64,000 nucleotides of DNA from a virus. The stretch's first letter is position 1. Every line of letters begins with the position of its first letter. The notes under the pieces are model-generated. The model worked only from the letters and a program-made list of their open reading frames with translations, ran no database searches and was not told where the DNA came from. The position numbers and the translations under genes were made by a program. This document shows, piece by piece, positions 3,238 through 64,000 of this stretch. Location of the stretch: the IMG/VR virus record IMGVR_UViG_3300010413_000017, positions 1 through 64,000 of that record; one strand, given 5' to 3'.

Positions 3238-5433
3238 ATGGACTTGATTGTAGAAAACATACTCCACTCTCACGTAGCTACTAATGTTAATTTAGCACAA
3301 ACAAAAAGAGTGGGACCAACTCCTAAACTTACCGCTCAAGCGCGCTTTGCGGTTTTGTTAAAACCTTTTGGTCTGTATGTTGACAATGCTCTTCACGACC
3401 ACACAGCGACATCTCCTAGTCTTATCCAACAACACAATTTAGTTATTTCCAGCTGTTCGCACTACCATTTGGTTGAAAGTGCCGTCCTCTCGCAAACCCA
3501 TATTTTAACAGTAGCAAGTTGCGTACATAATCATACTGTAGAAAGTCCAGCCCTCTTTTCTGTCGATAACTGTTGGCACAGCCACTCAGTCGATGCTATT
3601 AGTCTGACTCAAGAACATTCCCTTGTTGTTAGTAATTGTTTACATTCGCATACAGCAGGTAGTATTTATTTAAGTGAATGGGATATCCTCACAGTTTCAT
3701 CTGCTACACATAGCCATACCGCAGGTAGTGTAAGCCTGTCCCAAAAACATATCCTTACAGTTTCTAATTGTGAGCACAGCCATACATCTGATAAAGTTTC
3801 ATTTGTTGTATGGTTGTATCCTAGTTCAGCATTCCACTCGCATTCAGCCGAAAATGTAGACTTAGTTCAAGAGCACAGCCTTTTTGCCAATAATGCGTTT
3901 CACACACACTCAGCTCAAAGTGTAAGTTTATTTCAATTACATACACTAAGCACCCAGAACTGTGCTCATCTGCACAGCACAAGCCCTGTAACTTTAACTC
4001 AGACGCACTCTCTAGTTGTTAGCCCTACTGCTCATTTACACTCAGCCGACTCTGTTAGCCTCTCCCAGTTGCATGTTCTTATTATCAGTGCGTGTACTCA
4101 TGCACACAGCTCGGAGAATGTGGCACTAGTCAAAATTAGTAGCCTAGCAGTTTCTCCAACACTTCATAGCCATACAGCGGAAAGTGTAACATTACTAGAA
4201 TGGGATATTCTCACAGTCTACGACTGTGTCCATTCGCATACAGCTGAATCTCCCATACTAACGCAGGTTCATAACCTTGCAGTTTCTAGTTCTATTCATT
4301 CGCACACAGCAACAAGAATAAGTCTTTCTGGAACAGGCTTTTTAGATGTTCGGAACGCGTTGCATTTTCACTCAACCGAGAGCGTTAGCCTGTCCCAAGC
4401 ACATACTCTTGTAGTTGCTGATAGTTTCCACTCCCATACTGCTGAAAACATCTCGCTGACAGTTTGGCTTAATGTATCATTAGCTTCTCACACCCATACA
4501 GCAGAGAGCATCACTCTAATTCAAGAGCATTCGCTTTCTGTTGAGAATTCCCTTCACTATCATACGGTTTTGAACGTAGAGCTTGGACAGGTCTACATTC
4601 TAGTCACAAGCTCTGCCTCACATGTTCATACTGTTCAGGGAATAGTTTTATCACAAACTCACATCCTTGAGGCTCAGTCTGGGTTAAGTCAGCACTACGC
4701 TTCTGCTCCGACAATATTCCAGATTCACTTTTTAAGCGTAGATAATACTGTACATCAACATACAGTCGATTCCCTTAGCCTATCTGGCGCTCAGTTTTTG
4801 GATGTTCTGGGATGCCTACATAGTCATTCTTCAACATCTCCAACTTTATCTCAGCTCCACATTATAGGTGTGGCGAACGGCTCCCATACTCACATCGCTA
4901 CGTCTTTAACGTTAACTCAAACACATTTACTTGACACAACCAGCGCGCTTCACGCTCACAGGGTCGACGGCATAGTTCTCTTAGAATGGGATATTCTAAC
5001 AGTTCAGGGCTGTAGCCATGGCCATACGGTCGACTCCACTGCATTGGTTCAGCTCCATAGCCTGCCTGTCAATGATGGAGTACATACCCATTCAGCACAG
5101 GCGGTTGCTCTAGGCCAGACACATAACCTACTTGTTTCAAGTCTCCTCCACAGTCATACCTGCTCATTACTTGTTTTAGTAGCGATTCTGGATTTAATTG
5201 TTGATAGTGGTCTGCATTCACATATTGCAGAGAGCCCGGAGGTAGAACTTGCCAGTTTAAGTGTAGGAAACTGTCTCCATTCGCTCGTTTCTGACGTTGT
5301 CGCCTTAACGCAAGAGCATCGTCTGTTGGTTGCTAACACACGACATGTACAGACAGCAGAATCTCTAGTTGTGGTGCATATACCAAGAGTTTTACCAGAA
5401 GTCGGGCTAATAGTTTATGTGGAAAGACGATGA
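3238..5433 (+). CDS. His-rich repeat protein (~30 x ~22-aa HxH repeats), putative fibre/whisker
   Basis: Nearly the whole protein is repeats like 'CLHSHTAESVSLSQxHxLxV'; it lies in the structural module. Confidence 0.7.
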   Translation: MDLIVENILHSHVATNVNLAQTKRVGPTPKLTAQARFAVLLKPFGLYVDNALHDHTATSPSLIQQHNLVISSCSHYHLVESAVLSQTHILTVASCVHNHTVESPALFSVDNCWHSHSVDAISLTQEHSLVVSNCLHSHTAGSIYLSEWDILTVSSATHSHTAGSVSLSQKHILTVSNCEHSHTSDKVSFVVWLYPSSAFHSHSAENVDLVQEHSLFANNAFHTHSAQSVSLFQLHTLSTQNCAHLHSTSPVTLTQTHSLVVSPTAHLHSADSVSLSQLHVLIISACTHAHSSENVALVKISSLAVSPTLHSHTAESVTLLEWDILTVYDCVHSHTAESPILTQVHNLAVSSSIHSHTATRISLSGTGFLDVRNALHFHSTESVSLSQAHTLVVADSFHSHTAENISLTVWLNVSLASHTHTAESITLIQEHSLSVENSLHYHTVLNVELGQVYILVTSSASHVHTVQGIVLSQTHILEAQSGLSQHYASAPTIFQIHFLSVDNTVHQHTVDSLSLSGAQFLDVLGCLHSHSSTSPTLSQLHIIGVANGSHTHIATSLTLTQTHLLDTTSALHAHRVDGIVLLEWDILTVQGCSHGHTVDSTALVQLHSLPVNDGVHTHSAQAVALGQTHNLLVSSLLHSHTCSLLVLVAILDLIVDSGLHSHIAESPEVELASLSVGNCLHSLVSDVVALTQEHRLLVANTRHVQTAESLVVVHIPRVLPEVGLIVYVERR

Positions 5434-5513
5434 AGTATACTTTTATAACCATGATTGCTCAAACCATGATTTTCCTTGGCGTTTAACAAACTTGCCATTA
5501 TTATGTATGGAGA

Positions 5514-48469: not shown

Positions 48470-48481
48470 TCATATAAGGGG

Positions 48482-48552
48482 CAGGGGAATCTGGACTCGA
48501 ACCAGAAATGTGAGGTCCAAAACCTCACGTGTTACCTTTACACCATTCCCCT
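48482..48552 (-). tRNA. tRNA-Gln(UUG), CCA not encoded
   Basis: AGGGGAA/TTCCCCT acceptor, D arm GTGT/ACAC, TGAGG-TTTTGGA-CCTCA anticodon arm, TCTGG-TTCGAGT-CCAGA T arm. Confidence 0.88.
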
Positions 48553-48560
48553 CTTTTAGT

Positions 48561-48637
48561 TGGTACGGGCAGAGGGATTCGAACCCCCGACAACGTGGCC
48601 CCAAACCACGCACTCTACCAGACTGAGCTATGCCCGT
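48561..48637 (-). tRNA. tRNA-Pro(UGG) with CCA
   Basis: ACGGGCA/TGCCCGT acceptor, CGTGG-TTTGGGG-CCACG anticodon arm, TTCGAAT T loop, ACCA end. Confidence 0.92.
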
Positions 48638-48760
48638 ACTATCGTAGTAATCCACTGTCGAACAACTCAAGAATCCACTCTACGACCATGCTACCTACCA
48701 TGGCAGAGAGGAGTATGACAATTGTGACGATCAGGAAAAATCGTGTATAGTCTCTCAATT

Positions 48761-49006
48761 TCAACCGTCCTTGGAGCGGAACGAGGGATACGAACCCTCA
48801 TCTTTAGACGGGAAGTCTAACGTTTTACTTAAACTAGTTCCGCTTGGTTGTTCAATCGCTCGTTCGATGGCACACCTAACAAGAGGGATAAGTATGTCTA
48901 GACAACGTGTGCAATAGAGGTCAGGTAAATCGTAGCCTTGTTCAGCTAATGCAACAACATCGTCAATTAAGTCCCCGCAACCTTGGCAAAAAACATTTAT
49001 GGTCAT
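48761..49006 (-). CDS. Small CxxC..CxxC protein whose 3' end overlaps tRNA-Gly
   Basis: ATGA coupling to the upstream gene; CQGC...CTRC. Confidence 0.45.
   Translation of the reverse strand: MTINVFCQGCGDLIDDVVALAEQGYDLPDLYCTRCLDILIPLVRCAIERAIEQPSGTSLSKTLDFPSKDEGSYPSFRSKDG
48772..48843 (-). tRNA. tRNA-Gly(UCC) with a shortened D loop
   Basis: GCGGAAC/GTTCCGC acceptor, TCCA end, TTAGA-CTTCCCG-TCTAA arm, GAGGG-TTCGTAT-CCCTC T arm; D loop AAGTA lacks GG. Confidence 0.75.
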
Positions 49007-51037: not shown

Positions 51038-51282
51038 CAGTCTTCCTCTTTTTGTTTACTGCCCTGCGGATTTGTCATAGGCGTACCGTCAGGGAACAGT
51101 ACGAAATCTTCCTTTTGTTTAACCCAGTTGCACGGGCCATACTGACGTTCGAATTCGCGTATAAATTCGCGCCTGTCCTGTTCTTCAAGATGACGAAAGA
51201 ACGCGTCAGTCCACTTCTTCCAGAGCTTCTTAATTTTATCCACAGTTACTCCATCCACAAAAAGGATTAGGACAAGTTTCAC
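51037..51282 (-). CDS. Hypothetical protein
   Basis: ORF in operon order. Confidence 0.4.
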   Translation of the reverse strand: MKLVLILFVDGVTVDKIKKLWKKWTDAFFRHLEEQDRREFIREFERQYGPCNWVKQKEDFVLFPDGTPMTNPQGSKQKEED

Positions 51283-53509
51283 ATCCCTCTTTTGCTACCA
51301 AGATTTCTCCGCAATCTGGGCACATCTTAGCGTCCCCAGGTAGTACTCGGGTTGAGCGGTAGATTTCTAATTCATCCTCTGGAGCACTGGGGCTGGCGGC
51401 AGGAATCGAACCCGCGACCGTCTCATTACAAGTGAGGCGCTCTACCTGCTGAGCTACGCCAGCCCGTGCTTGTTGCTCTTGGGTTTGTTGGCTTTGTAAC
51501 TTTCTCTTGCGAATGACTTTTGCAATGCCGTCAGGGGGGGATAAGACTTGTTCTCCATTGTGGAACATTACACGCTCGCCGCCGATGCCCCGCAACTGCT
51601 TCTCGATGTCTTCCCACGACGCTCCATACTTAAGTGCAAGTGTCCCGAGGCGTCCGACAGCGTCGTTCATCGCCGCAATAGTTCTACCTGATTTAGAAAT
51701 CTGAGTCCACATTTCTTTAAACCCTGTATTAGAGTCTTCAAACAGATGCACCCAAAGAGTGCCGTCCCCAGTCTTAACTCTATCTCTGGACCCAGCTAGA
51801 AATTCAGGGGTTTCTAGAGTTACAGAAGACGTATATGACGCATGTTCTGCCTTTTTAGTATGGCGTAGGCTGGGTGGGAGAGATTTGATAATATCCCTGT
51901 ATGCTTTTGTATCTCGTTGGGCTTCCTCTTCTCGACTCCCCTGTCGGTAGAAAGTGATGCCCTTGCACCCAAGTTTATACGCGAGCCTGAAAGCTCTGTC
52001 CACTTCCTCGATAGTTACAGAACTGGGAGCGTTGATAGTCTTGCTTACAGCATTGTCTGTATATTTTTGGAAAGCGGCCTGCATCTTAACATGATGTTCG
52101 ATTGGGACGTCCTTAGATTCGATGAAATAGTCGGGACATTTTATCCCTTCATTGATGGCTTGCCAGTCCTCGTATAGAGGATGCATTACGACCAGCGTTT
52201 CATCTATTGCTTTTTTCTCGTAGACGAATGAGAATACTGGCTCAATCCCCGAGCTACACCCGGCTATTAAACTGAGTGTGCCTGTAGGAGCTATCGTTGT
52301 AACCGTCCCGTTTCTGCGGTCAATAAGGGGTGTATCCTTGCGCCCAGAAGGTAAGTCTGCCCAAGCTGGGTATCCTTTTTCCTTAGCTAACTCTGTAGAA
52401 CAGAGATGAGCTACGTCATTAACGAATTGCATCACCTGTTCAGCTAGGACTAGAGCCGTTTCCATGTCATAACGTATTCGCATCTTAATAAGCATGTCAG
52501 CCCAGCCCATAACACCTAGCCCTATTTTGCGGAACTTTGTTGTTTCTCGTTTTATTTCGATAATTGGGTAATTATTAACGTCAATTACGTTATCAAGAAA
52601 ACGGACGGCTGTTTGCACAACCTCCATGAGCCTGTCCCACTGGATTGCGGGGAATATTGTTCCGGTATCTTCATTTAGTAAAGGCTCAACAAAATTACTT
52701 AGATTGATGCTTCCTAAAACACAAGACTCATAAGGGGACAACGGTTGCTCCCCACAAGGATTTGTGGCTGTAATCTTTTGATACTTTCCGACAGGGTTAG
52801 TCTCGTTAACCTTGTCTATAAAGACAATGCCCGGTTCTCCGTTCTTCCATGCGCCGTCGATTATACTCGCCCAAATGTAATCTACGTGTGGATACCCTGT
52901 CAAGGCGACCTTATCCATGAAATCATCTGTTAAAGCAACCGAGATATTGAAATGTCTCAACTCTCCTTCTTTTTCTTTGCACTTAATAAACTCGAGAACA
53001 TCTGGATGGTCACAGCGTAGAATACCCATCTGCGCTCCTTTGCGAACTCCTCCCTGCTCAATTATTTCTCCTACAACAAAGTCAAAGACACGCATAAATC
53101 CAACAGGTCCAGAGGCTTTGCCTTTTGTTGTACTAATTAATGAACCGCGCGGTCGGAGATTCGAGAAATCGTAACCTGTGCCTCCACCGAAAGCCTGAAC
53201 TTCGACTGCGTCTGTGAGAGCTTTAAAAATAGACTGACGAGAATCTTCGATTGGGATAACAAAGCAGGCGGCTAAGTTACCGTGATTGGCTCCTGCGTTC
53301 CGCAGGGTGGGGGAGTTGGGAAGAAAATCCAAATTGGACATTACTGAGTAGAACTCTTGTTCCCAGTAGTCCTTGTCCTTTTCCACAGAGGCGATATGGC
53401 GTGCTACACGCCTGAACATCTCTTCCGGTGCTTCAATAACGTTGCCACGTGCATCCTGCTGTAGAATCCGCTTTTCTAAAACTCGAATCGCGTTAGCCGA
53501 CAGATTCAA
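51236..53509 (-). CDS. nrdJ: Class II (B12-dependent) ribonucleotide reductase
   Basis: FLPNSPTL, AACFV, GGGTG, GEPG, TNPCGEQPL..YESC.LGS, TIAPTGT, DNAVSKT and GCKGIT.YR motifs; TSCPD-like region; C-terminal CPDCG...EGC..C...CGWS.C; no beta-subunit gene nearby. Confidence 0.92.
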   Translation of the reverse strand: MNLSANAIRVLEKRILQQDARGNVIEAPEEMFRRVARHIASVEKDKDYWEQEFYSVMSNLDFLPNSPTLRNAGANHGNLAACFVIPIEDSRQSIFKALTDAVEVQAFGGGTGYDFSNLRPRGSLISTTKGKASGPVGFMRVFDFVVGEIIEQGGVRKGAQMGILRCDHPDVLEFIKCKEKEGELRHFNISVALTDDFMDKVALTGYPHVDYIWASIIDGAWKNGEPGIVFIDKVNETNPVGKYQKITATNPCGEQPLSPYESCVLGSINLSNFVEPLLNEDTGTIFPAIQWDRLMEVVQTAVRFLDNVIDVNNYPIIEIKRETTKFRKIGLGVMGWADMLIKMRIRYDMETALVLAEQVMQFVNDVAHLCSTELAKEKGYPAWADLPSGRKDTPLIDRRNGTVTTIAPTGTLSLIAGCSSGIEPVFSFVYEKKAIDETLVVMHPLYEDWQAINEGIKCPDYFIESKDVPIEHHVKMQAAFQKYTDNAVSKTINAPSSVTIEEVDRAFRLAYKLGCKGITFYRQGSREEEAQRDTKAYRDIIKSLPPSLRHTKKAEHASYTSSVTLETPEFLAGSRDRVKTGDGTLWVHLFEDSNTGFKEMWTQISKSGRTIAAMNDAVGRLGTLALKYGASWEDIEKQLRGIGGERVMFHNGEQVLSPPDGIAKVIRKRKLQSQQTQEQQARAGVAQQVERLTCNETVAGSIPAASPSAPEDELEIYRSTRVLPGDAKMCPDCGEILVAKEGCETCPNPFCGWSNCG
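51388..51463 (-). tRNA. tRNA-Thr(UGU) with CCA, embedded within nrdJ
   Basis: GCTGGCG TA GCTC AGCAGGTA GAGC G CCTCA CTTGTAA TGAGA CGGTC GCGGG TTCGATT CCTGC CGCCAGC C CCA (76 nt). Confidence 0.9.
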
Positions 53510-57122: not shown

Positions 57123-58065
57123 CCAATATCTCACGAATAACACCGAGTAAATCGGAAATCTCAGGAGCAATCGCACCAAAGTCGTAGTCCACTTGACTTG
57201 CTTTATGTTGTTGCGGGAGTCCATAACGCATCTGAAACTGAGCGGCGAGGACTGAAATGATGTGATGGTCTAATTCTCGCTTCATCACCTGTATGTCAGG
57301 CTTTTCCATAAACTCAACTAGACGCGTTAACATATTGTTGTACGAAACATGCCAGTCTGGAGTATTAATCAAATCGAAGAGTTGAGTTTTGTCGAACGAG
57401 AAAACCCTATCAGGATTGTCTTGGTAAAACATAAATGAGATAACACCAGCCAGATATTTGACCTTGCCCAAAAGAGCTGTCGTGCACTCTTGTACAAGTT
57501 CTCCACCTAGGTAGCGGGTAGGAATTCGCATACACGGTTTATAACGCTCAATCCAAGCGTCTTTCCTGTGCAAATAACTCGCGAGTGCTATTCCTGTGCG
57601 CAGATAGTCTTGTAGACGATCTAACTGTGAGAATGAATCGTCCCAGTTGTAGCCATAGCGTACACCCAGTAGTTTAGGAACGTTGTTATGCAGAGCAAAG
57701 TTAACTCTGTGTCCGTGACACGCAACATAGTCTGGGTTGTTCTCCAAGAACTCTGCGCATTGTTTTAGCCCGTCACCAATGTGGAAATCATCGTCCCCTG
57801 AGAAAGCGACATACTTAACTGAGTCGTGAAGGTATTCGTTGACTTGGGCCACGGCCCCGCCGTCGTGCGGGGCCATTACCCAATGGTAGCTGATAAACAG
57901 AGAACCTCCGTATTCATCAACAACCGCTTTGTTGTTAGTGGCCTCTTCGTCGTCAGACGAATCGGCTATATATACAACACCGTCGAAATCGGTGCGTGCG
58001 TAAAACGACAATGCACGGCGTAAGTACCGACTTCGATTCAGTGTAGGGATGACGATGGCAATCAC
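57109..58065 (-). CDS. GT-A (TIGR04440-type) glycosyltransferase, copy 3
   Basis: IVIPTLNR, IADSS, FSGDDDF and FLENNPDYVACHG motifs. Confidence 0.82.
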   Translation of the reverse strand: MIAIVIPTLNRSRYLRRALSFYARTDFDGVVYIADSSDDEEATNNKAVVDEYGGSLFISYHWVMAPHDGGAVAQVNEYLHDSVKYVAFSGDDDFHIGDGLKQCAEFLENNPDYVACHGHRVNFALHNNVPKLLGVRYGYNWDDSFSQLDRLQDYLRTGIALASYLHRKDAWIERYKPCMRIPTRYLGGELVQECTTALLGKVKYLAGVISFMFYQDNPDRVFSFDKTQLFDLINTPDWHVSYNNMLTRLVEFMEKPDIQVMKRELDHHIISVLAAQFQMRYGLPQQHKASQVDYDFGAIAPEISDLLGVIREILDESV

Positions 58066-58425
58066 TTACTTCCTCCTGTTTCTGAGTCTGTTCAAGTACA
58101 CGTACATGTCACAGTCATGAACAGATTCTTTCCTGTCATTCCGTTGAATACGAAAGGTGCCACCAAGGACATTGATATCAACTTCGATATGTCCATGTCT
58201 GTCTGTATAAAGACGCGCAACCGGCCGTCCAGAAGACGCTTGTGCAAGCTCCTGTCTAAGCCTGCTGAGTAAGCTGTCGCCTCCGCATGAACATACGTCA
58301 CCCCTATACATGCTGGACGGTCTGTCTTCGTCAAACGACCTTGTAAACGCAGTCCCACAGCTTCTACAGAAGTTGTCGTCAGAACTTACTTCCCATCCAC
58401 AGTCAGTACAAATCATGTCGTCCAT
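58066..58425 (-). CDS. Zn-ribbon hypothetical protein
   Basis: CTDCG...NFCRSCG. Confidence 0.6.
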   Translation of the reverse strand: MDDMICTDCGWEVSSDDNFCRSCGTAFTRSFDEDRPSSMYRGDVCSCGGDSLLSRLRQELAQASSGRPVARLYTDRHGHIEVDINVLGGTFRIQRNDRKESVHDCDMYVYLNRLRNRRK

Positions 58426-58556
58426 AACTTTCTCCTTTTTTATGTTAGCAGTTCTGGTCTTCCGGTTATAATTTATTGTTTCGTTTCCCCTTGTTGTAGT
58501 GTTTAATGAATAAACGAAGGAGTTCGTGGGTATCTGTAATCGAGCCTCCTCCTTGT

Positions 58557-59630
58557 TTATCGTTTGGTGAACCTGCTTTTGCGTTTTGGTACTACAGCGG
58601 CCTCCACTTCTAGCCAGTCCTTCTCGGCAAGCGTTTTGAGTTCTGCTAAGTCTTCGGGAGAGTCCTCAAGGAATGAAATGAATGACTGGCGTTTAAACGT
58701 CTTGTCGCCCCACTTAATCTCTTTGTCCCCATACATATAGTCAATGAGGGAATTAATATCGTCTATGCCGTAGTCGAACAAAATGGAAAACTCGGCCATA
58801 CGAAACGGTTTTGCTACTTTGTTGCGTTTGAAATTAGCCTTGACTGTCACCCCATATGTGCGTTTCTGTCCACGAAACGTTTTATCCAGCTTGCCGGTGT
58901 GGGCTAACCAGCATACTTGGTGTGTATAAAAATCGAGGGCTTTGCCGCCAGTTCTATAGTGCTTCTCACCAAACATCTGCCCAATCTTTTCTCGTACTTG
59001 AGAAATACAAATAAGTGTGGAATCCTTGCCTTGCATACTTTTACACAGATGATTGAAAAAACCTGAGCTAAAAAACTTAGCCTTCTCTGCGCCCATAGAA
59101 CCGGGGGCTTTCTGTTCGTCAAGTATTTTTTGCATTCTGTCAGCCGCCGCGTCTGGCACAAGTGCGTCGACTGAATCTATAACATAAATCAGACACTGCC
59201 CGGGTGTGAGAGCGTTAACGCGCCTAAGATAATCTGTCCCGAAATCCTCCGCGATGGGTGTCTGAATCCATGTGACAGCGCTAACGAAGTCATCTCCATA
59301 CATGTCTTCGATGGGGAAGTCCATGACTCCTTCAACGTTGTTGTAAACGATGAAAAGCTCTTTTATGGGCGGATAGAGGGCAGAGGGTTTCGCTTTTAAG
59401 TTGTAAAAAGCGTGGGCGCAAGCCTCCAAGGAGAGGAGCGTTTTCCCGCTTGAGCCGTCTCCGACAATGTTAACAATCCTACCTCTGGCCCAACCTCCAC
59501 TTAGACCTCTTTGGGAGGCGGCGAGGTTGAGCAGGGTCGAGCCCGTATCAATGAACTCGACCCTTTCACCCCGCTCCACTGGCTTCCGTGCCAGCTTCTC
59601 TGTTTCCTCGACGATTGCTGATTTAGCCAT
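58557..59630 (-). CDS. RecA/UvsX-like recombinase
   Basis: IDTGS..L, GG..RGRI, Walker A GDGSSGKT, IDSV, ISQVR.KIG, TGGKAL.FY and KNKVAKPF-like motifs. Confidence 0.92.
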   Translation of the reverse strand: MAKSAIVEETEKLARKPVERGERVEFIDTGSTLLNLAASQRGLSGGWARGRIVNIVGDGSSGKTLLSLEACAHAFYNLKAKPSALYPPIKELFIVYNNVEGVMDFPIEDMYGDDFVSAVTWIQTPIAEDFGTDYLRRVNALTPGQCLIYVIDSVDALVPDAAADRMQKILDEQKAPGSMGAEKAKFFSSGFFNHLCKSMQGKDSTLICISQVREKIGQMFGEKHYRTGGKALDFYTHQVCWLAHTGKLDKTFRGQKRTYGVTVKANFKRNKVAKPFRMAEFSILFDYGIDDINSLIDYMYGDKEIKWGDKTFKRQSFISFLEDSPEDLAELKTLAEKDWLEVEAAVVPKRKSRFTKR

Positions 59631-60622
59631 TATCTACGCCGTCTCGGAGTTGGACGGGGAGCCTCTTCCTCTTCATACTCCTCATCAGGTTGTACCTCTT
59701 CTCTTTCGGCTTCTTCTTCTGCGTACTCTGACTGCCAAAGTTCATGGCAAGGATTGTAGAGTTCGCATCCGGACAAGCACTCTTCATACGCCTCAAACGA
59801 TTCTCCAAAGACCCCACCATGAGGACAGGTAGGAGAACTCTTTTTGAAGCTTCTGGGAGTCCCCGGCACAGTTTCAGCCGCCATATCCTCAACTTCCAGA
59901 CCAGCCCAGAACGCCTTTTTGACCTGCTCATAGGTCGGAATGTCGAGCAGTTCATCTAAGGTCGGAACGTTGTCGATGATTGAGTCAGGAATATCATCTT
60001 CACGCTCTGAGAACTGAAAGCCAGTCCACTGTTGCTGAGTTTTACTGCCTTTGATTTGGAAGGCGATGGAGCGTCCCTCTTCGGCAGTCGGGTCAGCAAA
60101 GGCGACAACCCCGCCAGTCCGAGGCTTTTTGCAGATGTTCATGACGTTATTCTGGAAGAACCAATGAGCCACAGTCCAGATTTGAATGCCTTTAGACTCG
60201 TTGTCTCTGTCCAGAATGGCGTAGACTGAATACCGCTTCGGACGTGCACTATCAATCTGGCCTTTAACATCGTCAGAGGGATTGTCTACCCGCCTTAACT
60301 TCTCGCGGTATTCGCAGATAGGACAGTTCTTGTTGTATGTCCTAAAGAGGCAGATGAAATCGTCCTCATTAGGTCCGATAAACCTATGGACATAGAGGTC
60401 GACAAGGTAAGTGGGTTCTCCCTCGTTCTTCACAGGGTCATTTGGGCCTGCGAAGTAGGGGAGGACATCAACAAGATGTTCGCCAATATCCGGGTTGAAG
60501 ATTGACAAGCTACCTAACTTGTTTCTGTCCAGAATCCCCCTTCGCCTGTCTTCTCGGGTGTCATAGGTTTCCTGCGTGCGTTGGCGTAAGCCCGCACTAA
60601 GTGCTTTTCTGCGATCTTTCAA
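59630..60622 (-). CDS. Single-stranded DNA-binding protein (gp32-like)
   Basis: H...C...CPICE Zn site, DP..EGR motif, acidic tail; adjacent to the RecA-like gene. Confidence 0.75.
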   Translation of the reverse strand: MKDRRKALSAGLRQRTQETYDTREDRRRGILDRNKLGSLSIFNPDIGEHLVDVLPYFAGPNDPVKNEGEPTYLVDLYVHRFIGPNEDDFICLFRTYNKNCPICEYREKLRRVDNPSDDVKGQIDSARPKRYSVYAILDRDNESKGIQIWTVAHWFFQNNVMNICKKPRTGGVVAFADPTAEEGRSIAFQIKGSKTQQQWTGFQFSEREDDIPDSIIDNVPTLDELLDIPTYEQVKKAFWAGLEVEDMAAETVPGTPRSFKKSSPTCPHGGVFGESFEAYEECLSGCELYNPCHELWQSEYAEEEAEREEVQPDEEYEEEEAPRPTPRRRR

Positions 60623-60660
60623 ACGGTTTTCTCCTGTATTAAATTTGTGTAGTTAGGGTG

Positions 60661-61152
60661 TTACTGCGCCGGAACAGCTGAACGGCTAGGACGCTTTTCT
60701 CCAAGCGCCTCCTTGAGTTTCTTACTGACCTGTTCCTGAACAAGGTCAGCACCAACAGTGCTACGCGGCTCGGAGAAGTAGCTGGTCAGGTGCAAATCAA
60801 CCAGCTTTTCCAAGCCCTTGCGCTTGTGTTCCAAAGCCCGAACGACGGCTCGGAGCATATTCAGCTCGTATTTAGCGAGGATGATTTCCTCTTCCAGTTC
60901 TTGGAATTCGGGCTGTCTGGCGATGAAGTTTTTGAGGACAGCTTCTGTGACACGTTCTGTTGCAGTTTCTCTGAGTTGTTGGTCGAGCTGAGCGATTAAG
61001 ACATCTTTCCTGAGTTCCAAGCGTGAGACTACACGCTCGGCTTCGACTGCCTGCTCGCTATAGCTCAACACGTTGCTAGGATGTTTTACCCATTCGTCGT
61101 CGAGGGCAAATTTGTCAATGCTGACATCTGCCTCTACCTGAGATTTGTCCAT
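60661..61152 (-). CDS. UvsY-like recombination mediator
   Basis: Helical; 'ID...LD.E', 'TEA', 'ALEHKRK.LE.L..L....YF' motifs; next to SSB and RecA. Confidence 0.65.
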   Translation of the reverse strand: MDKSQVEADVSIDKFALDDEWVKHPSNVLSYSEQAVEAERVVSRLELRKDVLIAQLDQQLRETATERVTEAVLKNFIARQPEFQELEEEIILAKYELNMLRAVVRALEHKRKGLEKLVDLHLTSYFSEPRSTVGADLVQEQVSKKLKEALGEKRPSRSAVPAQ

Positions 61153-61168
61153 AATTCCTCCTTACTTT

Positions 61169-61196
61169 ATTATAGCCTGTACCGGCTATTTTGGAA
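61169..61196 (-). promoter_or_regulatory. Sigma70-like promoter for the uvsY-ssb-recA block
   Basis: TTCCAA-16 nt-TATAAT, followed by AAGGAGG RBS and ATG at 61152. Confidence 0.45.
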
Positions 61197-61207
61197 GTTA
61201 AAAGTGT

Positions 61208-61463
61208 GAGTGCGCTCAGCTTCTTTGGGTTCCTTATTGTTTTTGGCTCGCTTTTGGTGTTTGGTGTCCTTGGACAAGATAGCTCGCTTGCCACTTTTGG
61301 GTTTCTTAGAGTCAATGGCTCGCTTTCCTCTGATGGGTTTCTTATTATAACTGGCTCGCTTGCCACTTTTGGGTTTCTTAACCTATAGGACTCGCTTCTG
61401 GTTAATGGGTTTCTTTATGCAGGTGGCTCGCTTATATCTGATGGGTGCCTTGGGCGTGTTGAC
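61208..61463 (-). ncRNA. TIGR-like array, downstream part (~7 units of 36 nt)
   Basis: Alternating AAGCGAGCCA / AAGAAACCCA repeats (- strand) separated by 8-nt variable segments; strict 18/36-nt period. Confidence 0.88.
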
Positions 61464-62492
61464 TTAAGCCACATCGTCAGGTGAAACAGACTCTCGTCCG
61501 GCCTCTACAGGAACCGGTGTAGCGTCATAAACCCAGCCACGTTCCTCTGGCATAATCGTTCTGTGCGGCCCGTCTAGAACTGCCTCTGCGTATAGAGGTG
61601 AAGTAGGTAATCCCAAAAGTGTTCTGCCTACATACCAATAGTCCGCAAGGAAGTGCTTCATAATGACACGCAGTGCGGCCATGTGCCTGTGATTAGGAAC
61701 GGTCTCTTTCCATGGTTTCTCGACAAGCCTGTGCCGACCGTTATGTAAGCCAAATGTCTTAACAAGTTTCTCAGAGTTATCCAACTTGGAGCGCGTTTTG
61801 TCGTACAGATAACCATACGCGCTACCTTTGTTCCTCTGTTTCATCTGTGAGTTAGCCATAGTGAAGAGAGCAGTCCGAAGAGACCTGTTACCACCACTAG
61901 GTTCCCCCGGAGTATAGCGGGCGTGGGCGGGAGTGTGCAGTCCAGTGTACCTCCACAGACTGGAGGCGTGCTTCGCCTTTGCCAGATCTATGTAGACAAG
62001 GCAGTAAGCTATGGTCACAAAGCCAACAGAATGTACTCCCAATGCGGCTTGCACCAACGGGTTCGTTTGGGCAATCTCGTTAACCGTTTTTTTGAGTGCG
62101 TGCGTACGCTTGCTCAACAGAGACGTTAATTGGTCGAGTTGTATAGACAGAAACTCGGCTGTTTCTGGGTTAAGAGTATCTGTACGCCTTCGATACGCGC
62201 GTAACTGATTGCCGATTTTGGTGTGGAGTTTCAAGACTTGGTTCCTGTCATCCACTTGGGCTTTGAGACGTTCAAACAGTTCAGGACGCTCCCGAAAGAT
62301 GCCATGGTGCCGCATGTGAGTGATGGGGTCTACCACGCATGTGTTATCGGGAGTATACCTTCCACCTTTGCTTTTGGGTTTCAGCCTGTGTGTGTCGAAG
62401 CTTTCAGTAGGTTCACCTAGTGGTTGTCCAGTAAATGCGTCAACTCCAAGTTGTTTCTCCTTAGTCGTACGTTTCAGTTCTTCTTTTGCCAC
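61464..62492 (-). CDS. tasH: TasH-like RNA-guided nuclease (HNH + coiled coil + Nop/IS110-like domain)
   Basis: N-terminal HNH (DTHRLKPKSKGG.YTPDN...THMRHH), coiled coil, GVHSVG...IDL.KA...SSLWRYTGL, GGN..LRT.L and HRH.AALR...K.FL.D motifs; no DEDD RuvC domain; flanked by dual-repeat arrays. Confidence 0.82.
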   Translation of the reverse strand: MAKEELKRTTKEKQLGVDAFTGQPLGEPTESFDTHRLKPKSKGGRYTPDNTCVVDPITHMRHHGIFRERPELFERLKAQVDDRNQVLKLHTKIGNQLRAYRRRTDTLNPETAEFLSIQLDQLTSLLSKRTHALKKTVNEIAQTNPLVQAALGVHSVGFVTIAYCLVYIDLAKAKHASSLWRYTGLHTPAHARYTPGEPSGGNRSLRTALFTMANSQMKQRNKGSAYGYLYDKTRSKLDNSEKLVKTFGLHNGRHRLVEKPWKETVPNHRHMAALRVIMKHFLADYWYVGRTLLGLPTSPLYAEAVLDGPHRTIMPEERGWVYDATPVPVEAGRESVSPDDVA

Positions 62493-62509
62493 GCTGTGCT
62501 CTCCTTTTG

Positions 62510-62663
62510 AGATTCGTTACTAAACGCTGGGTTTCTTCAAACTGATGGCTCGCTTAAGGTTTTTGGGTTTCTTGAGTATGCTGACTCGCTTTCCAATGTT
62601 GGGTTTCTTAGATGATGTGGCTCACTTGGTATTTATGGGTTTCTTTCAGGGCTTGGCTCTTAC
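62510..62663 (-). ncRNA. TIGR-like array, upstream part (~4 units of 36 nt)
   Basis: Same alternating repeats; TGGGTTTCTT at 62528, 62564, 62600 and 62636 on the + strand. Confidence 0.88.
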
Positions 62664-62668
62664 CTAGT

Positions 62669-64000
62669 TTATAGCCCGTTGGGGGCGTACTTCCCATCTA
62701 AAAACTCAGTATAGGGAACCTTTTTCTTAGTTGACCAAGGAGCGTCGATATCACACAACTCGAACTCAACTTCGAGTGGCACGTTACACCAAGAATGTAC
62801 TTGCAACGCCCTTTCAGACATAATCCAGTTCGCCATAGTCACAACTCGATGAAGTTCCTCTGGCTGAACACTCAGCAAAATACAATCGTGAATCTGGCCG
62901 AGGATAACTGAACTTAGCCTGTCTTTTTTTAGAAACTTGCTGAGTTCTATCAGGCTCCACAGTAAGATATGAAAAGCTGTTCCCTGAATTGGAGTGTTCA
63001 AAATCTCATTCCTAGCCAAGTAGCCTTGGCGTCTGAACCCATATTTGAGGGGTACACGACCGGTCTTATAATAGCGTGCTACCCATTTTTCTTTCCATTT
63101 GGCGTAGGTAGAGAACTGTTTCCAGAACCTGTTCTCTTCTGCTTGAATGTGCTCTGTGAAAACATCCAAAGAAGTAAGCTTCTGGTTCATTAAATGTTCT
63201 CGTAAAGAAGAGCCGTCGGCAAGGAGTAGTTGCTCTCCGTCTTTCCAGAGTTTCTCAGCACAAGGTCTGTACCACGAGCCGTATAACTGAGCAAAAACAA
63301 ACGCTCCTTTAACAAGATTGCGTACAGCTTTTGTAATCTGGTCTCGGGGTAATAGGTATACTCGTTCGGTCTGGTCCCTGTGCATATCTGACGTGGGGTC
63401 TTTACAGTAACGAATAAGTTCAGGGTCTTGGGTGAACGTTGCCGCAATCCGGACTTCGTGCATTCCAAAGTCTATTTCAAGAAGTTGTTGGCCGTGATGA
63501 GGAAACATACCGCTTCGCACAAGCTGAGTCATACGCTCGTCGCGAGCTGGAATGTTTTGTAAATTAGGACGGCTCGATGAACCTCGATATGTTCTTACTC
63601 TGTGAAGATGGAAAAAGGGATGTAAAGTCTCCTTATAGATTTCACGGATAATCCCTTTTATATAGGTAGATTCAGTTTTAGTTGCACTACGGAGTCGAGT
63701 TACATCAATCAAGAAAGAGCGTAGACTCTGTTGTGGAAGAGTCCGAGAGAACTCCTCAATGTCCTCTTTGTCTAAGGTGGGATTTCCCTTCGCTGACTTC
63801 TTCCTAGGTTCGATCCCAACATAGTCAAAGAGAAGAGTTTTGAGTTGTGGAGCAGACCCGGGGTTAAGTGGAACGCCTGTCTTCTTTTCCCATAACCGAG
63901 CGTAGTGAGAGTCCATGACTCTCGCTTTTGCGGCCTTGCTCTCCTCTGAGATAGTGGTAAACGCTTCTTGGAATACCTCAGAGGAAGCTCTAAAGCCTGT
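62669..64000 (-). CDS. polA: Family A DNA polymerase (5' truncated)
   Basis: SSSRPNLQNIP, motif A (DFGMHEVR), motif B (R...K..FVFAQLYG), NTPIQGTA and QIHD; frame is open to the window end. Confidence 0.92.
   Translation of the reverse strand, partial: TGFRASSEVFQEAFTTISEESKAAKARVMDSHYARLWEKKTGVPLNPGSAPQLKTLLFDYVGIEPRKKSAKGNPTLDKEDIEEFSRTLPQQSLRSFLIDVTRLRSATKTESTYIKGIIREIYKETLHPFFHLHRVRTYRGSSSRPNLQNIPARDERMTQLVRSGMFPHHGQQLLEIDFGMHEVRIAATFTQDPELIRYCKDPTSDMHRDQTERVYLLPRDQITKAVRNLVKGAFVFAQLYGSWYRPCAEKLWKDGEQLLLADGSSLREHLMNQKLTSLDVFTEHIQAEENRFWKQFSTYAKWKEKWVARYYKTGRVPLKYGFRRQGYLARNEILNTPIQGTAFHILLWSLIELSKFLKKDRLSSVILGQIHDCILLSVQPEELHRVVTMANWIMSERALQVHSWCNVPLEVEFELCDIDAPWSTKKKVPYTEFLDGKYAPNGL

What the first reader, a model, noticed from the sequence alone, without database searches (positions are those of the whole stretch)
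61208..62663. Phage-encoded RNA-guided system: HNH-Nop protein with 36-nt dual-repeat guide arrays (TIGR-TasH-like)
Seen: two different 10-nt repeats (- strand AAGCGAGCCA and AAGAAACCCA) alternate with variable 8-nt segments at an exact 36-nt period, about 11 units in total. They flank a 342-aa gene made of an HNH domain with His/Asn/His residues retained, a coiled coil, and a C-terminal region resembling the IS110/Nop RNA-binding fold. Known: TIGR-Tas systems (Faure et al., Science 2025) use ~36-nt tigRNAs with two short spacers, one per DNA strand, and Nop-domain proteins; the HNH-fused form is TasH. Inference: this is a programmable nuclease the phage aims at competing phages, plasmids or host DNA. 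Standard pipelines would probably label it an IS110 transposase plus a spurious ORF.
Basis: partly seen in the sequence, partly recalled or inferred. Interest (0 to 1): 0.93.

Follow-up and report, generated by a model that had tools for sequence, protein, structure and literature searches.

The report
Phage TIGR-TasH RNA-guided nuclease locus
This marine-sediment phage carries a genuine, apparently intact copy of the TIGR-TasH system, a small RNA-guided DNA cutter first described in 2025. It has eleven two-part guides flanking the nuclease gene and is an ordinary new member of a known family, and its natural targets are still unknown.

Summary

- **Arrays:** On the minus strand, two arrays with an exact 36-nt period flank a 342-aa gene. 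Each unit is a 10-nt edge repeat AAGCGAGCCA, an 8-nt spacer A, a 10-nt loop repeat AAGAAACCCA and an 8-nt spacer B. There are 4 units upstream and 7 downstream.
- **Protein:** It matches the solved TasH of Salicola phage CGphi29 (phmmer E 5.6e-82, 46% identity). Its predicted fold superposes on the TasH-tigRNA-DNA complex 9w04 (TM 0.82/0.90).
- **Key residues:** The HNH residues are present (H35, N50, H59; H59 aligns with SpTasH H54). So is the Tyr/His dyad that matures the guides (Y301, H310).
- **Repeats:** The edge repeat is identical to that of the experimentally studied SpTIGR array.
- **Relatives:** IMG/VR phages carry the same repeats, often on both sides of the gene.
- **Setting:** The cassette lies in a phage replication module, in the order PolA | TIGR-tasH-TIGR | UvsY-like, gp32, RecA-like.
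- **Targets:** No natural target was found. Searches of the phage's own genome, related phages and IMG/VR stayed at chance level.

This is a new member of a known kind, not a new system. Published surveys list 20,096 tas loci, and this scan has already noted TIGR-Tas loci in at least 12 other genomes.

The parts
62510..62663 (-). Upstream TIGR array: 5'-truncated edge repeat, four 36-nt units (U1-U4) and a degenerate terminal half edge. It starts 6 nt after the PolA stop codon (62669) and ends 18 nt before the tasH start.
   Evidence: same grammar as SpTIGR and the IMG/VR relatives
61464..62492 (-). tasH: 342-aa TIGR-associated HNH-Nop protein (GTG start, GGAG Shine-Dalgarno). The last ~20 residues are a non-conserved, low-confidence tail.
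62295..62435 (-). HNH nuclease domain (about residues 20-66): D33, H35, N50, H59 (aligns with SpTasH H54) and H63.
   Evidence: alignments; beta-beta-alpha element in the model; H54A is nuclease-dead in SpTasH (10.64898/2026.08.11.744272)
62070..62282 (-). Coiled-coil dimerisation domain (residues 71-141, two long helices).
   Evidence: secondary structure; superposition on 9w04; SpTasH description in 10.64898/2026.08.11.744272
61527..62060 (-). Nop-type RNA-binding domain (residues about 145-322). It includes W261/H268 (SpTasH W249/H256) and the pre-tigRNA processing dyad Y301/H310 (SpTasH Y289/H296).
   Evidence: PMC13421893 for the residue roles
61208..61469 (-). Downstream TIGR array: a truncated edge overlapping the tasH stop codon, seven 36-nt units (D1-D7) and a terminal half edge GAGCG. 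D3 and D5 share spacer B (AAAGTGGC).
62708..62737 (-). Weak sigma-70-like promoter match (TGGTCA-18-TATACT) inside the end of the PolA gene, 45 nt upstream of the array. It is not above the shuffle background.
   Evidence: 5 sites found against 3.5 +/- 1.6 expected
61172..61189 (-). 6-bp hairpin (ATAGCC-6 nt-GGCTAT) between the end of the array and the next gene's Shine-Dalgarno. No U-tract follows on the minus strand, so it is not a recognisable intrinsic terminator.

Best explanation
This is a complete dual-repeat TIGR-TasH system carried by a tailed phage.

**Shown here**
- The protein belongs to the TasH family. Its nuclease and RNA-processing residues are intact.
- The two arrays have the TIGR grammar, with the same edge repeat as the characterised SpTIGR.

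**Inferred by homology with SpTasH and TaTasR**
1. The arrays are transcribed with tasH, most likely as part of the minus-strand replication operon PolA > array > tasH > array > UvsY-like > gp32 > RecA-like. The gaps are only a few nucleotides and no terminator is present.
2. A TasH dimer binds the CCA (box C) and AAG (box D-side) ends of the edge and loop repeats.
3. The Y301/H310 dyad cuts the precursor in the middle of each edge repeat, probably AAGCG|AGCCA. The truncated repeats at the array ends keep exactly these halves.
4. This yields up to eleven 36-nt tigRNAs of the form 5'-AGCCA-spacerA(8)-AAGAAACCCA-spacerB(8)-AAGCG-3'.
5. Spacer A pairs with one DNA strand and spacer B with the other strand next to it. 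The 16-bp target therefore reads 5'-spacerA + reverse complement of spacerB-3', with no PAM.
6. Each HNH domain nicks one strand, giving a staggered double-strand break.

**Inferred from context only**
The likely biological use is against foreign DNA (co-infecting phages, other mobile elements or the host), not the phage's own genome. The own genome has no match with two or fewer mismatches.
For: - **Protein identity:** (phmmer against PDB, TasH E 5.6e-82, residues 14-323; 46% identity to SpTasH; model pLDDT 87.3, pTM 0.82; Foldseek 9w04 E 1.6e-27, TMt 0.90, then TasR and IS621).
- **Residues:**. D33, N50, Y301, W261 and H268 are invariant; H59, H63 and H310 are present in at least 90% of 26 relatives. 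Their roles come from 10.64898/2026.08.11.744272 (H54A is nuclease-dead; W249/H256) and PMC13421893 (Y289/H296 processing).
- **Arrays:**. The edge repeat equals that of SpTIGR. Loci L012, L015, L016 and L017 have both repeats identical, and arrays lie on both sides of tasH in L012, L015 and L017 (L016 is cut within tasH). Array ends keep GAGCCA (5') and AAGCG-like (3') halves in this locus and in the relatives.
- **Target geometry:** derived from the 'C - 5 rule' and the 8-nt 3' overhang in PMC12045711.
- **Context:** (gp32, RecA-like, UvsY-like, PolA, clamp, clamp loader; tail and head genes).
- **No self-target:**
- **Transcription signals:** no terminator and no significant promoter inside the cassette.
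Against: - No RNA data exist for this locus, so transcription, processing and loading are inferred.
- Four of the eleven units have variant repeats. D3's edge ends in TCC and D6's in CTA instead of the box C CCA, so some guides may be poorly processed or bound.
- The rho-independent terminator typical after TIGR arrays is absent.
- No natural target was found for any guide, so the proposed role in inter-element conflict has no direct support.
- SpTasH is a very slow nuclease (0.01 per min), and a dead mutant represses transcription. Cutting may therefore not be the only or main activity in vivo.
Confidence: 0.9

Rival explanations
1. It is an IS110-family insertion sequence: a transposase with flanking repeats, moved as an ordinary IS.
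For: Pfam Transposase_20 (IS116/IS110/IS902) gives a weak hit at residues 155-222 (E 0.021, below the cutoff). PHROGs assigns 'transposase' families. IS621 and ISCro4 recombinases appear among the fold matches.
Against: - The N-terminus is an HNH domain, not the DEDD/RuvC-like transposase domain. No DEDD_Tnp_IS110 hit was found.
- The match to TasH is about 75 orders of magnitude better than to any IS110-type protein.
- No terminal inverted repeats flank the cassette.
- The flanking repeats are 36-nt-phased dual-spacer arrays, not a single bridge RNA.
Confidence: 0.02
2. The system works mainly as an RNA-guided DNA binder or repressor (of host or competitor genes, or as a regulator) and not as a cutter.
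For: A nuclease-dead SpTasH (H54A) represses GFP when aimed at the promoter or the ORF, and wild-type cleavage is very slow (10.64898/2026.08.11.744272). Dead TasR and TasA act as repressors (10.64898/2026.09.09.750476).
Against: The HNH residues are fully retained and conserved across the clade, which argues for selection on cutting. No guide matches the phage's own genome with two or fewer mismatches, so self-regulation is unlikely.
Confidence: 0.15
3. The cassette is a selfish, RNA-guided homing or marker-exclusion element. It cuts cassette-free relatives during co-infection and spreads through the phage's own UvsX/UvsY/gp32 recombination machinery.
For: - The cassette sits in intergenic junctions of recombination/replication modules. 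The junction differs between phages: here PolA|UvsY-like, L012 gp32|RecA-like, L004 between PolA and gp32, L016/L017 upstream of PolA. In Salicola phage CGphi29 it lies between head genes.
- Phages with 35-46% GC carry the same repeats.
- From my own knowledge, not tested here: free-standing HNH and GIY-YIG homing endonucleases of T4-like phages occupy similar positions.
Against: - No guide of this phage or of three relatives matches another of these genomes above the control order.
- No cassette-free close relative of this phage was available (PolA best hit 36% identity), so no empty site could be examined.
- The phages compared are distant, so gene-order differences may be ordinary rearrangements.
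Confidence: 0.1
4. It is a decaying relic: the gene or the arrays are no longer functional.
For: Several units have degenerate repeats (D1, D3, D6, D7; U4's terminal half edge). The protein has an unconserved 20-aa tail that reads into the array.
Against: The ORF is intact and all tested functional residues are kept. Seven units are canonical or differ by one base. The locus is identical in contigs of two other studies. Degenerate terminal units are usual in TIGR arrays (PMC12045711; 10.64898/2026.09.09.750476).
Confidence: 0.05

Closest known systems
SpTIGR-TasH of Salicola phage CGphi29 (PDB 9w02-9w04, 9vzx, 21kl; PMC12045711, PMC13421893, 10.64898/2026.08.11.744272)
   Same: - Domain order HNH, coiled coil, Nop, with 46% identity over 303 residues.
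- 36-nt units with 8-nt spacers.
- Identical edge repeat AAGCGAGCCA.
- Conserved nuclease His (H59 = H54), processing dyad (Y301/H310 = Y289/H296) and W261/H268 (= W249/H256).
- Phage-borne.
   Different: - The loop repeat is AAGAAACCCA here and AAGACAACCA in SpTIGR.
- Arrays lie on both sides of the gene (4 + 7 units), whereas in the SpTIGR locus read here the phased units lie downstream of tasH.
- No terminator follows the array.
- The canonical first HNH position is His (H35) where SpTasH has Asp (D30). Both states occur in the clade (11 His, 15 Asp of 26).
- The protein has a 20-aa C-terminal tail.
- It is embedded in a replication/recombination module rather than between head genes.
Uncultured-phage TasH loci in IMG/VR (L012, L015, L016, L017 and others)
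   Same: Both repeats are identical. Arrays lie upstream and downstream of tasH, and array ends keep half edges. Several lie near PolA, gp32 and RecA-like genes.
   Different: Only 41-55% protein identity. No spacer is shared with this phage. The cassette occupies different junctions, and host-phage GC ranges from 35 to 46%.
TaTasR / ParTasR (TIGR-TasR; PDB 9mty)
   Same: Nop domain plus coiled-coil dimer, 36-nt dual-spacer tigRNA, two-strand targeting without a PAM (Foldseek E 8.1e-08; phmmer E 1.2e-07).
   Different: The nuclease is RuvC, not HNH. Spacers are 9 nt, and box D is UG rather than AAG-type. Faure et al. did not find TasR to process its own guides, whereas TasH does.
IS110/IS621 bridge-RNA recombinases (PDB 8wt6, 8wt9)
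   Same: Related RNA-binding (Nop/Tnp-type) C-terminal fold, and guide RNA with two-part recognition (TM about 0.43-0.46).
   Different: They have a DEDD recombinase domain, one structured bridge RNA and transposition. None of these is present here.
Box C/D snoRNP (Nop5/Nop56/58)
   Same: Nop domain, coiled-coil dimer, and guide RNA with box C/D motifs flanking two guide segments (PMC12045711).
   Different: They target RNA for 2'-O-methylation with fibrillarin and L7Ae, use K-turns and have no nuclease. No direct match to Nop5 was listed in the fold search here.
CRISPR-Cas
   Same: Arrays of repeats and variable spacers, processed into guides for a nuclease.
   Different: In TIGR there are two alternating 10-nt repeats, 8-nt split spacers that read both DNA strands, no PAM, no adaptation genes, and a single 342-aa effector of unrelated fold.

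Membership tests
TIGR-Tas (dual-repeat), subtype TasH | Tas protein with a C-terminal Nop-type RNA-binding domain and a central coiled-coil dimerisation domain | tested here: met
   phmmer to solved TasH E 5.6e-82 over residues 14-323. The AF2 model (pLDDT 87.3) superposes on 9w04 with TMq 0.82/TMt 0.90. Two long helices span 71-101 and 109-141.
TIGR-Tas (dual-repeat), subtype TasH | N-terminal HNH nuclease domain with catalytic residues | tested here: met
   H59 aligns with SpTasH H54, whose H54A mutant is nuclease-dead. D33 and N50 are invariant, and H59 and H63 occur in at least 90% of 26 relatives. A beta-beta-alpha element is present in the model, and there is a weak fold match to the Gme HNH nickase 4h9d.
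TIGR-Tas (dual-repeat), subtype TasH | Array of two distinct alternating 8-12-nt repeats (edge, loop) separated by short spacers, in 36-nt units, next to the tas gene | tested here: met
   11 units of 10+8+10+8 nt, exactly phased, 4 upstream and 7 downstream. 14 exact repeat copies in the window (13 in the arrays) against 0.21 expected.
TIGR-Tas (dual-repeat), subtype TasH | Box C (CCA) at the 3' end and a covarying box D at the 5' start of both the edge and the loop repeat | tested here: met
   Both consensus repeats end in CCA and start with AAG, as in SpTIGR. Exceptions are the D3 edge (TCC) and the D6 edge (CTA).
TIGR-Tas (dual-repeat), subtype TasH | [quoted passage not shown] | tested here: inconclusive
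   Truncated edges are present at all four array ends (GAGCCA / AGTCA at the starts; TAACG / GAGCG at the ends). No terminator follows either array on the minus strand, which fits read-through into the downstream genes.
TIGR-Tas (dual-repeat), subtype TasH | Y/H processing dyad on the C-terminal loop of the Nop domain (dual-repeat systems) | tested here: met
   Y301 and H310 align with SpTasH Y289 and H296. Y301 is invariant and H310 occurs in at least 90% of relatives.
TIGR-Tas (dual-repeat), subtype TasH | Arrays are transcribed and processed into 36-nt tigRNAs bound by the Tas dimer | not testable with these tools
   No RNA run is listed as holding the locus. This needs small-RNA sequencing after expression.
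TIGR-Tas (dual-repeat), subtype TasH | tigRNA-dependent cleavage of dsDNA, with spacer A and spacer B pairing to opposite strands | not testable with these tools
   Inferred from SpTasH and TaTasR (PMC12045711, PMC13421893). No natural target was found.
IS110-family insertion sequence | N-terminal DEDD (RuvC-like) transposase domain | tested here: not met
   No DEDD_Tnp_IS110 hit. The N-terminus is an HNH domain.
IS110-family insertion sequence | Discrete element ends or multiple copies | tested here: not met
   No flanking inverted repeats beyond chance. The cassette is single-copy in the 73.9-kb genome.
CRISPR-Cas | Single 25-36-nt repeat with spacers of similar size, and cas genes | tested here: not met
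   The repeats are 10 nt and of two kinds, and the spacers are 8 nt. The neighbouring genes are PolA, UvsY-like, gp32 and RecA-like.

The most novel reading that the evidence does not exclude
The TIGR-tasH cassette is a mobile, RNA-guided homing or marker-exclusion element of phage replication modules. Its eleven guides would cut cassette-free or allelic relatives during co-infection, and the adjacent UvsX/UvsY/gp32 recombination machinery would repair the breaks from the cassette-bearing genome. This would spread the cassette and its linked alleles. The phage's own DNA might additionally be shielded by its modification genes (FolE, QueE-like, glycosyltransferases, MT-A70).
Probability: 0.1. 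Interest if true: 0.7.

Novelty: new member of a known kind. Interest (0 to 1): 0.3.

Why it matters
TIGR-Tas systems are compact, PAM-free RNA-guided DNA-targeting systems of current interest for genome editing. Their natural targets, their mode of spacer acquisition and their biological role are still open (PMC12045711; 10.64898/2026.09.09.750476).

This locus adds one more intact TasH, 46% identical to the only TasH with solved structures. It uses the same edge repeat, a slightly different loop repeat and a canonical first HNH histidine. It sits on a near-genome-length phage contig from marine sediment that recurs in several metagenome studies.

That makes it a usable ortholog for biochemical comparison. 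It is also a reasonable case for hunting targets in the metagenomes where the phage lives. It does not change what is known about the family.

Tried and rejected
**Target searches** (target = spacer A + reverse complement of spacer B, gap 0-2)
- Own 73.9-kb genome: no hit with two or fewer mismatches. At three mismatches there were 23 hits against 22 in the control order.
- 190 guides from this and related loci against 216 kb of loci: no perfect hit. At one mismatch there were 6 hits against 3 in the control order, with about 2.8 expected.
- Exact IMG/VR scans for four canonical guides gave D5 18, D4 12, D2 6 and U3 15 contigs. These are my estimate of chance numbers for a 16-mer, with many hits being redundant copies of one lineage. 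No contig was hit by two guides.
- Nine D5 hits lie in one conserved gene of large marine phages; I guess a baseplate protein from its sequence (not tested). The whole contigs of that lineage carry no second guide target at one mismatch or fewer.
- The U3 hit lies on a 93-kb contig from the same IMG sample as relative L016. That contig has 29% GC and no other guide target.
- Guides of three relatives with identical repeats against each other's whole contigs and this genome: 6 true-order against 6 control-order hits at one mismatch.

I conclude that all of these are at chance level.

**Other searches that gave nothing**
- Rfam: no family in 60600-63300 at E 1 or below.
- Promoter and terminator scan: not above the shuffles.
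- Sequencing runs: no RNA holder is listed, so nothing can be said on expression.
- Contigs of four DNA runs showed no variants in the arrays, so there is no information on spacer turnover.
- GTDB species genomes: no relative was found with two peptide patterns. The sensitivity was limited, so this is not proof of absence.
- Close relatives of the phage: the PolA search in IMG/VR gave only one 36% hit, and blastn of 58000-64000 against GenBank phages found nothing. No cassette-free 'empty site' could therefore be examined.
- Short inverted matches between array pieces and the tasH coding region (I1/I2/I6) are imperfect and at background frequency.
Full report
**Observation.** On the minus strand the window holds two exactly phased arrays around one gene.
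- The upstream array (62663 down to 62510) starts 6 nt after the stop codon of a family-A DNA polymerase gene. [quoted passage not shown] It ends in a degenerate half edge 18 nt before the GTG start of the gene.
- The downstream array (61469 down to 61208) starts with a truncated edge that overlaps the stop codon. It has seven units and ends in the half edge GAGCG.
- Each unit is a 10-nt edge repeat (consensus AAGCGAGCCA), an 8-nt spacer A, a 10-nt loop repeat (AAGAAACCCA) and an 8-nt spacer B.
- The two 10-mers occur 14 times exactly in the window, 13 of them in the arrays, against 0.21 in shuffles. No unit lies elsewhere in the 73,860-bp genome.
- Tandem Repeats Finder sees only part of the downstream array, because half of each unit is variable.
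- Contigs from two other metagenome studies carry 61028-62609 and 60629-61453 without any difference.

**The protein.** ORF 61464-62492 (-) encodes 342 residues.
- Generic libraries give little. Pfam has only a sub-threshold Transposase_20 (IS110) hit, and PHROGs calls it 'transposase'.
- Against the sequences of solved structures it matches TasH of Salicola phage CGphi29 at E 5.6e-82 over residues 14-323, with 46% identity. TIGR-TasR follows at E 1.2e-07.
- An AlphaFold2 model built on 26 relatives (pLDDT 87.3, pTM 0.82) superposes on the TasH-tigRNA-dsDNA complex 9w04 with TM 0.82/0.90. TasR (9mty) and the IS621 and ISCro4 bridge-RNA recombinases follow.
- In the alignment, D33, N50, W261, H268 and Y301 are invariant. 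H59, H63 and H310 are present in at least 90% of the sequences.
- H59 aligns with SpTasH H54, whose H54A mutant is nuclease-dead (10.64898/2026.08.11.744272).
- Y301 and H310 align with Y289 and H296, the metal-independent pre-tigRNA processing dyad (PMC13421893).
- W261 and H268 align with W249 and H256, which stack on the displaced strand (10.64898/2026.08.11.744272).
- The canonical first HNH position is His here (H35) and Asp in SpTasH. Among the 26 sequences it is His in 11 and Asp in 15.
- The last 20 residues are unconserved and of low confidence.

**The arrays compared with known TIGR arrays.** Faure et al. (PMC12045711) define dual-repeat TIGR arrays by the following features:
- two alternating 8-12-nt repeats with short spacers;
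- location upstream and/or downstream of tas;
- a 5'-truncated edge at the start and a 3'-truncated edge at the end;

SpTIGR has 8-nt spacers. Reading the SpTIGR locus directly shows the edge repeat AAGCGAGCCA, identical to this one, and the loop repeat AAGACAACCA, two bases different.

Sixteen IMG/VR loci encode relatives at 41-55% identity over the full-length matches. L012, L015, L016 and L017 have both repeats identical to this locus, with arrays on both sides of tasH in L012, L015 and L017 (L016 is cut within tasH). Their arrays end in AAGCG half edges. Flanking arrays are a listed arrangement in the TIGRFinder survey (10.64898/2026.09.09.750476). The one usual feature not found is a terminator after the array.

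**How it most likely works.** The identity of the protein and the array grammar are shown here; the steps below are inferred from SpTasH and TaTasR.
1. The cassette is in the same orientation as its neighbours and almost abuts them. It is therefore probably transcribed within the replication operon: MT-A70, clamp, clamp loader, PolA, array, tasH, array, UvsY-like, gp32, RecA-like. A weak promoter-like site at 62737-62708 is not above background.
2. TasH dimers bind the box motifs of the edge and loop repeats.
3. The Y301/H310 dyad cuts within each edge, probably AAGCG|AGCCA as the retained halves at the array ends suggest. This releases up to eleven 36-nt guides.
4. As a side effect, the cutting would also separate the PolA, tasH and uvsY-gp32-recA messages. 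This is inference only.
5. From the 'C - 5 rule' and the 8-nt 3' overhang reported for TasR, the target on one strand reads spacer A followed by the reverse complement of spacer B: 16 bp with no PAM.
6. Each HNH domain nicks one strand.

Units D2, D4, D5, U2 and U3 are canonical or nearly so. D3 and D6 have altered box C in their 5' edge and may work poorly.

**Biological role.** This is the weak point, here as in the literature, where natural targets are still called undeterminable. I looked for targets in four places:
- the phage's own genome;
- related loci;
- IMG/VR, for four guides;
- whole contigs of candidate target lineages and of relatives with the same repeats.

All counts match control orders or what I estimate for a random 16-mer, and no contig is hit by two guides. 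The absence of near-perfect self-matches argues against self-regulation. Nothing more can be said.

**Context.**
- The genome is a 73.9-kb IMG/VR virus record with tail, head and T4-type recombination genes. It has 45.7% GC.
- It is found in runs labelled marine sediment metagenome from several studies.
- No close relative exists in the phage collections searched.
- With a limited pattern search, no relative of this TasH clade was found in 185,579 species genomes.

**Comparison and novelty.** The locus meets every sequence-level criterion of dual-repeat TIGR-TasH except the terminator. The functional criteria could not be tested. It fails the criteria of an IS110 element (no DEDD domain, no element ends) and of CRISPR.

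It is a new member of a known kind. The protein forms its own 90%-identity cluster, and the nearest relative is 57% identical. The family has 20,096 catalogued loci, and this scan has already confirmed TIGR-Tas loci in at least 12 other genomes.

**Most novel reading not excluded.** The cassette lies at different junctions of replication/recombination modules in different phages. Phages with 35-46% GC carry the same repeats. This is compatible with a mobile, possibly homing-type element. I found no guide-to-relative matches to support it and give it about 10%.

Noticed in passing
window 61362-61369 and 61290-61297 (-): Units D3 and D5 carry the same spacer B (AAAGTGGC) with unrelated spacers A. 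Similar half-spacer or whole-unit duplications occur in relatives: L011 has one whole unit (CAAAGGTT/ACCCGCGC) and one spacer B (TGACTCAG) each twice, L012 has one spacer A twice, and L005 has one spacer A twice. This points to recombination between repeats as a source of new guide combinations.
   Followed up: partly
L002 and L003 (IMG/VR), arrays at about 4945-5500: Two closely related TasH loci share four complete units in the same order but differ in the units between and around them. TIGR arrays therefore gain or lose units on short evolutionary distances. By contrast, this phage's arrays are identical in contigs of two other studies.
   Followed up: partly
window 58557-64000; L004, L012, L016, L017: The TIGR-tasH cassette sits at different junctions of homologous replication/recombination modules: here PolA|UvsY-like, L012 gp32|RecA-like, L004 between PolA and gp32, L016/L017 upstream of PolA. 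In Salicola phage CGphi29 it lies between the major head protein and head-tail adaptor genes. This suggests a mobile cassette.
   Followed up: partly
L049 (G000 63000-73860), i.e. just beyond the window's end: Upstream of PolA on the minus strand lie an MT-A70 methyltransferase, a clamp-like protein, a clamp loader, a second methyltransferase-like gene, a GT1 glycosyltransferase, GTP cyclohydrolase I (FolE, E 3.8e-55) and a radical-SAM QueE-like gene. No TGT/DpdA domain was detected by Pfam in the 378-aa candidate.
   Followed up: partly
window 51388-51463 (-): ARAGORN calls a tRNA-Thr(TGT) that lies inside the 757-aa ORF 51236-53509 on the same strand. Three more tRNAs (Gln, Pro, Gly) cluster at 48480-48843.
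   Followed up: no
window 61191-61388 (+), 61210-61350 (+), 61115-61366 (-), 62545-62667 (+): ORFs of 40-83 codons run through the arrays with periodic, repeat-derived translations. They are artefacts of the repeats and would be miscalled as genes.
   Followed up: yes
window 61464-61526 (-), TasH residues 323-342: TasH here has a 20-residue C-terminal tail that most relatives lack; they end at or within a few residues of the conserved ERGWxY. The tail has pLDDT below 50, and its last codon and the stop codon overlap the first, truncated edge repeat of the downstream array.
   Followed up: partly
L019, L020, L022, L023, L025, L028, L032, L035, L036 (IMG/VR): The 16-bp target of guide D5 is perfectly conserved in one gene of a lineage of large marine phages (contigs estimated at 9-14% complete), even where the flanks are only 85-91% identical. 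I guess it encodes a baseplate protein (not tested). I judged this a chance hit multiplied by an abundant lineage, because no second guide matches those contigs.
   Followed up: yes
window 61208-62663, spacer B positions 1-4: Spacer B is A-rich at its 5' end (A at position 3 in 8 of 11 units), while spacer A shows no such bias. The sample is too small to judge.
   Followed up: no
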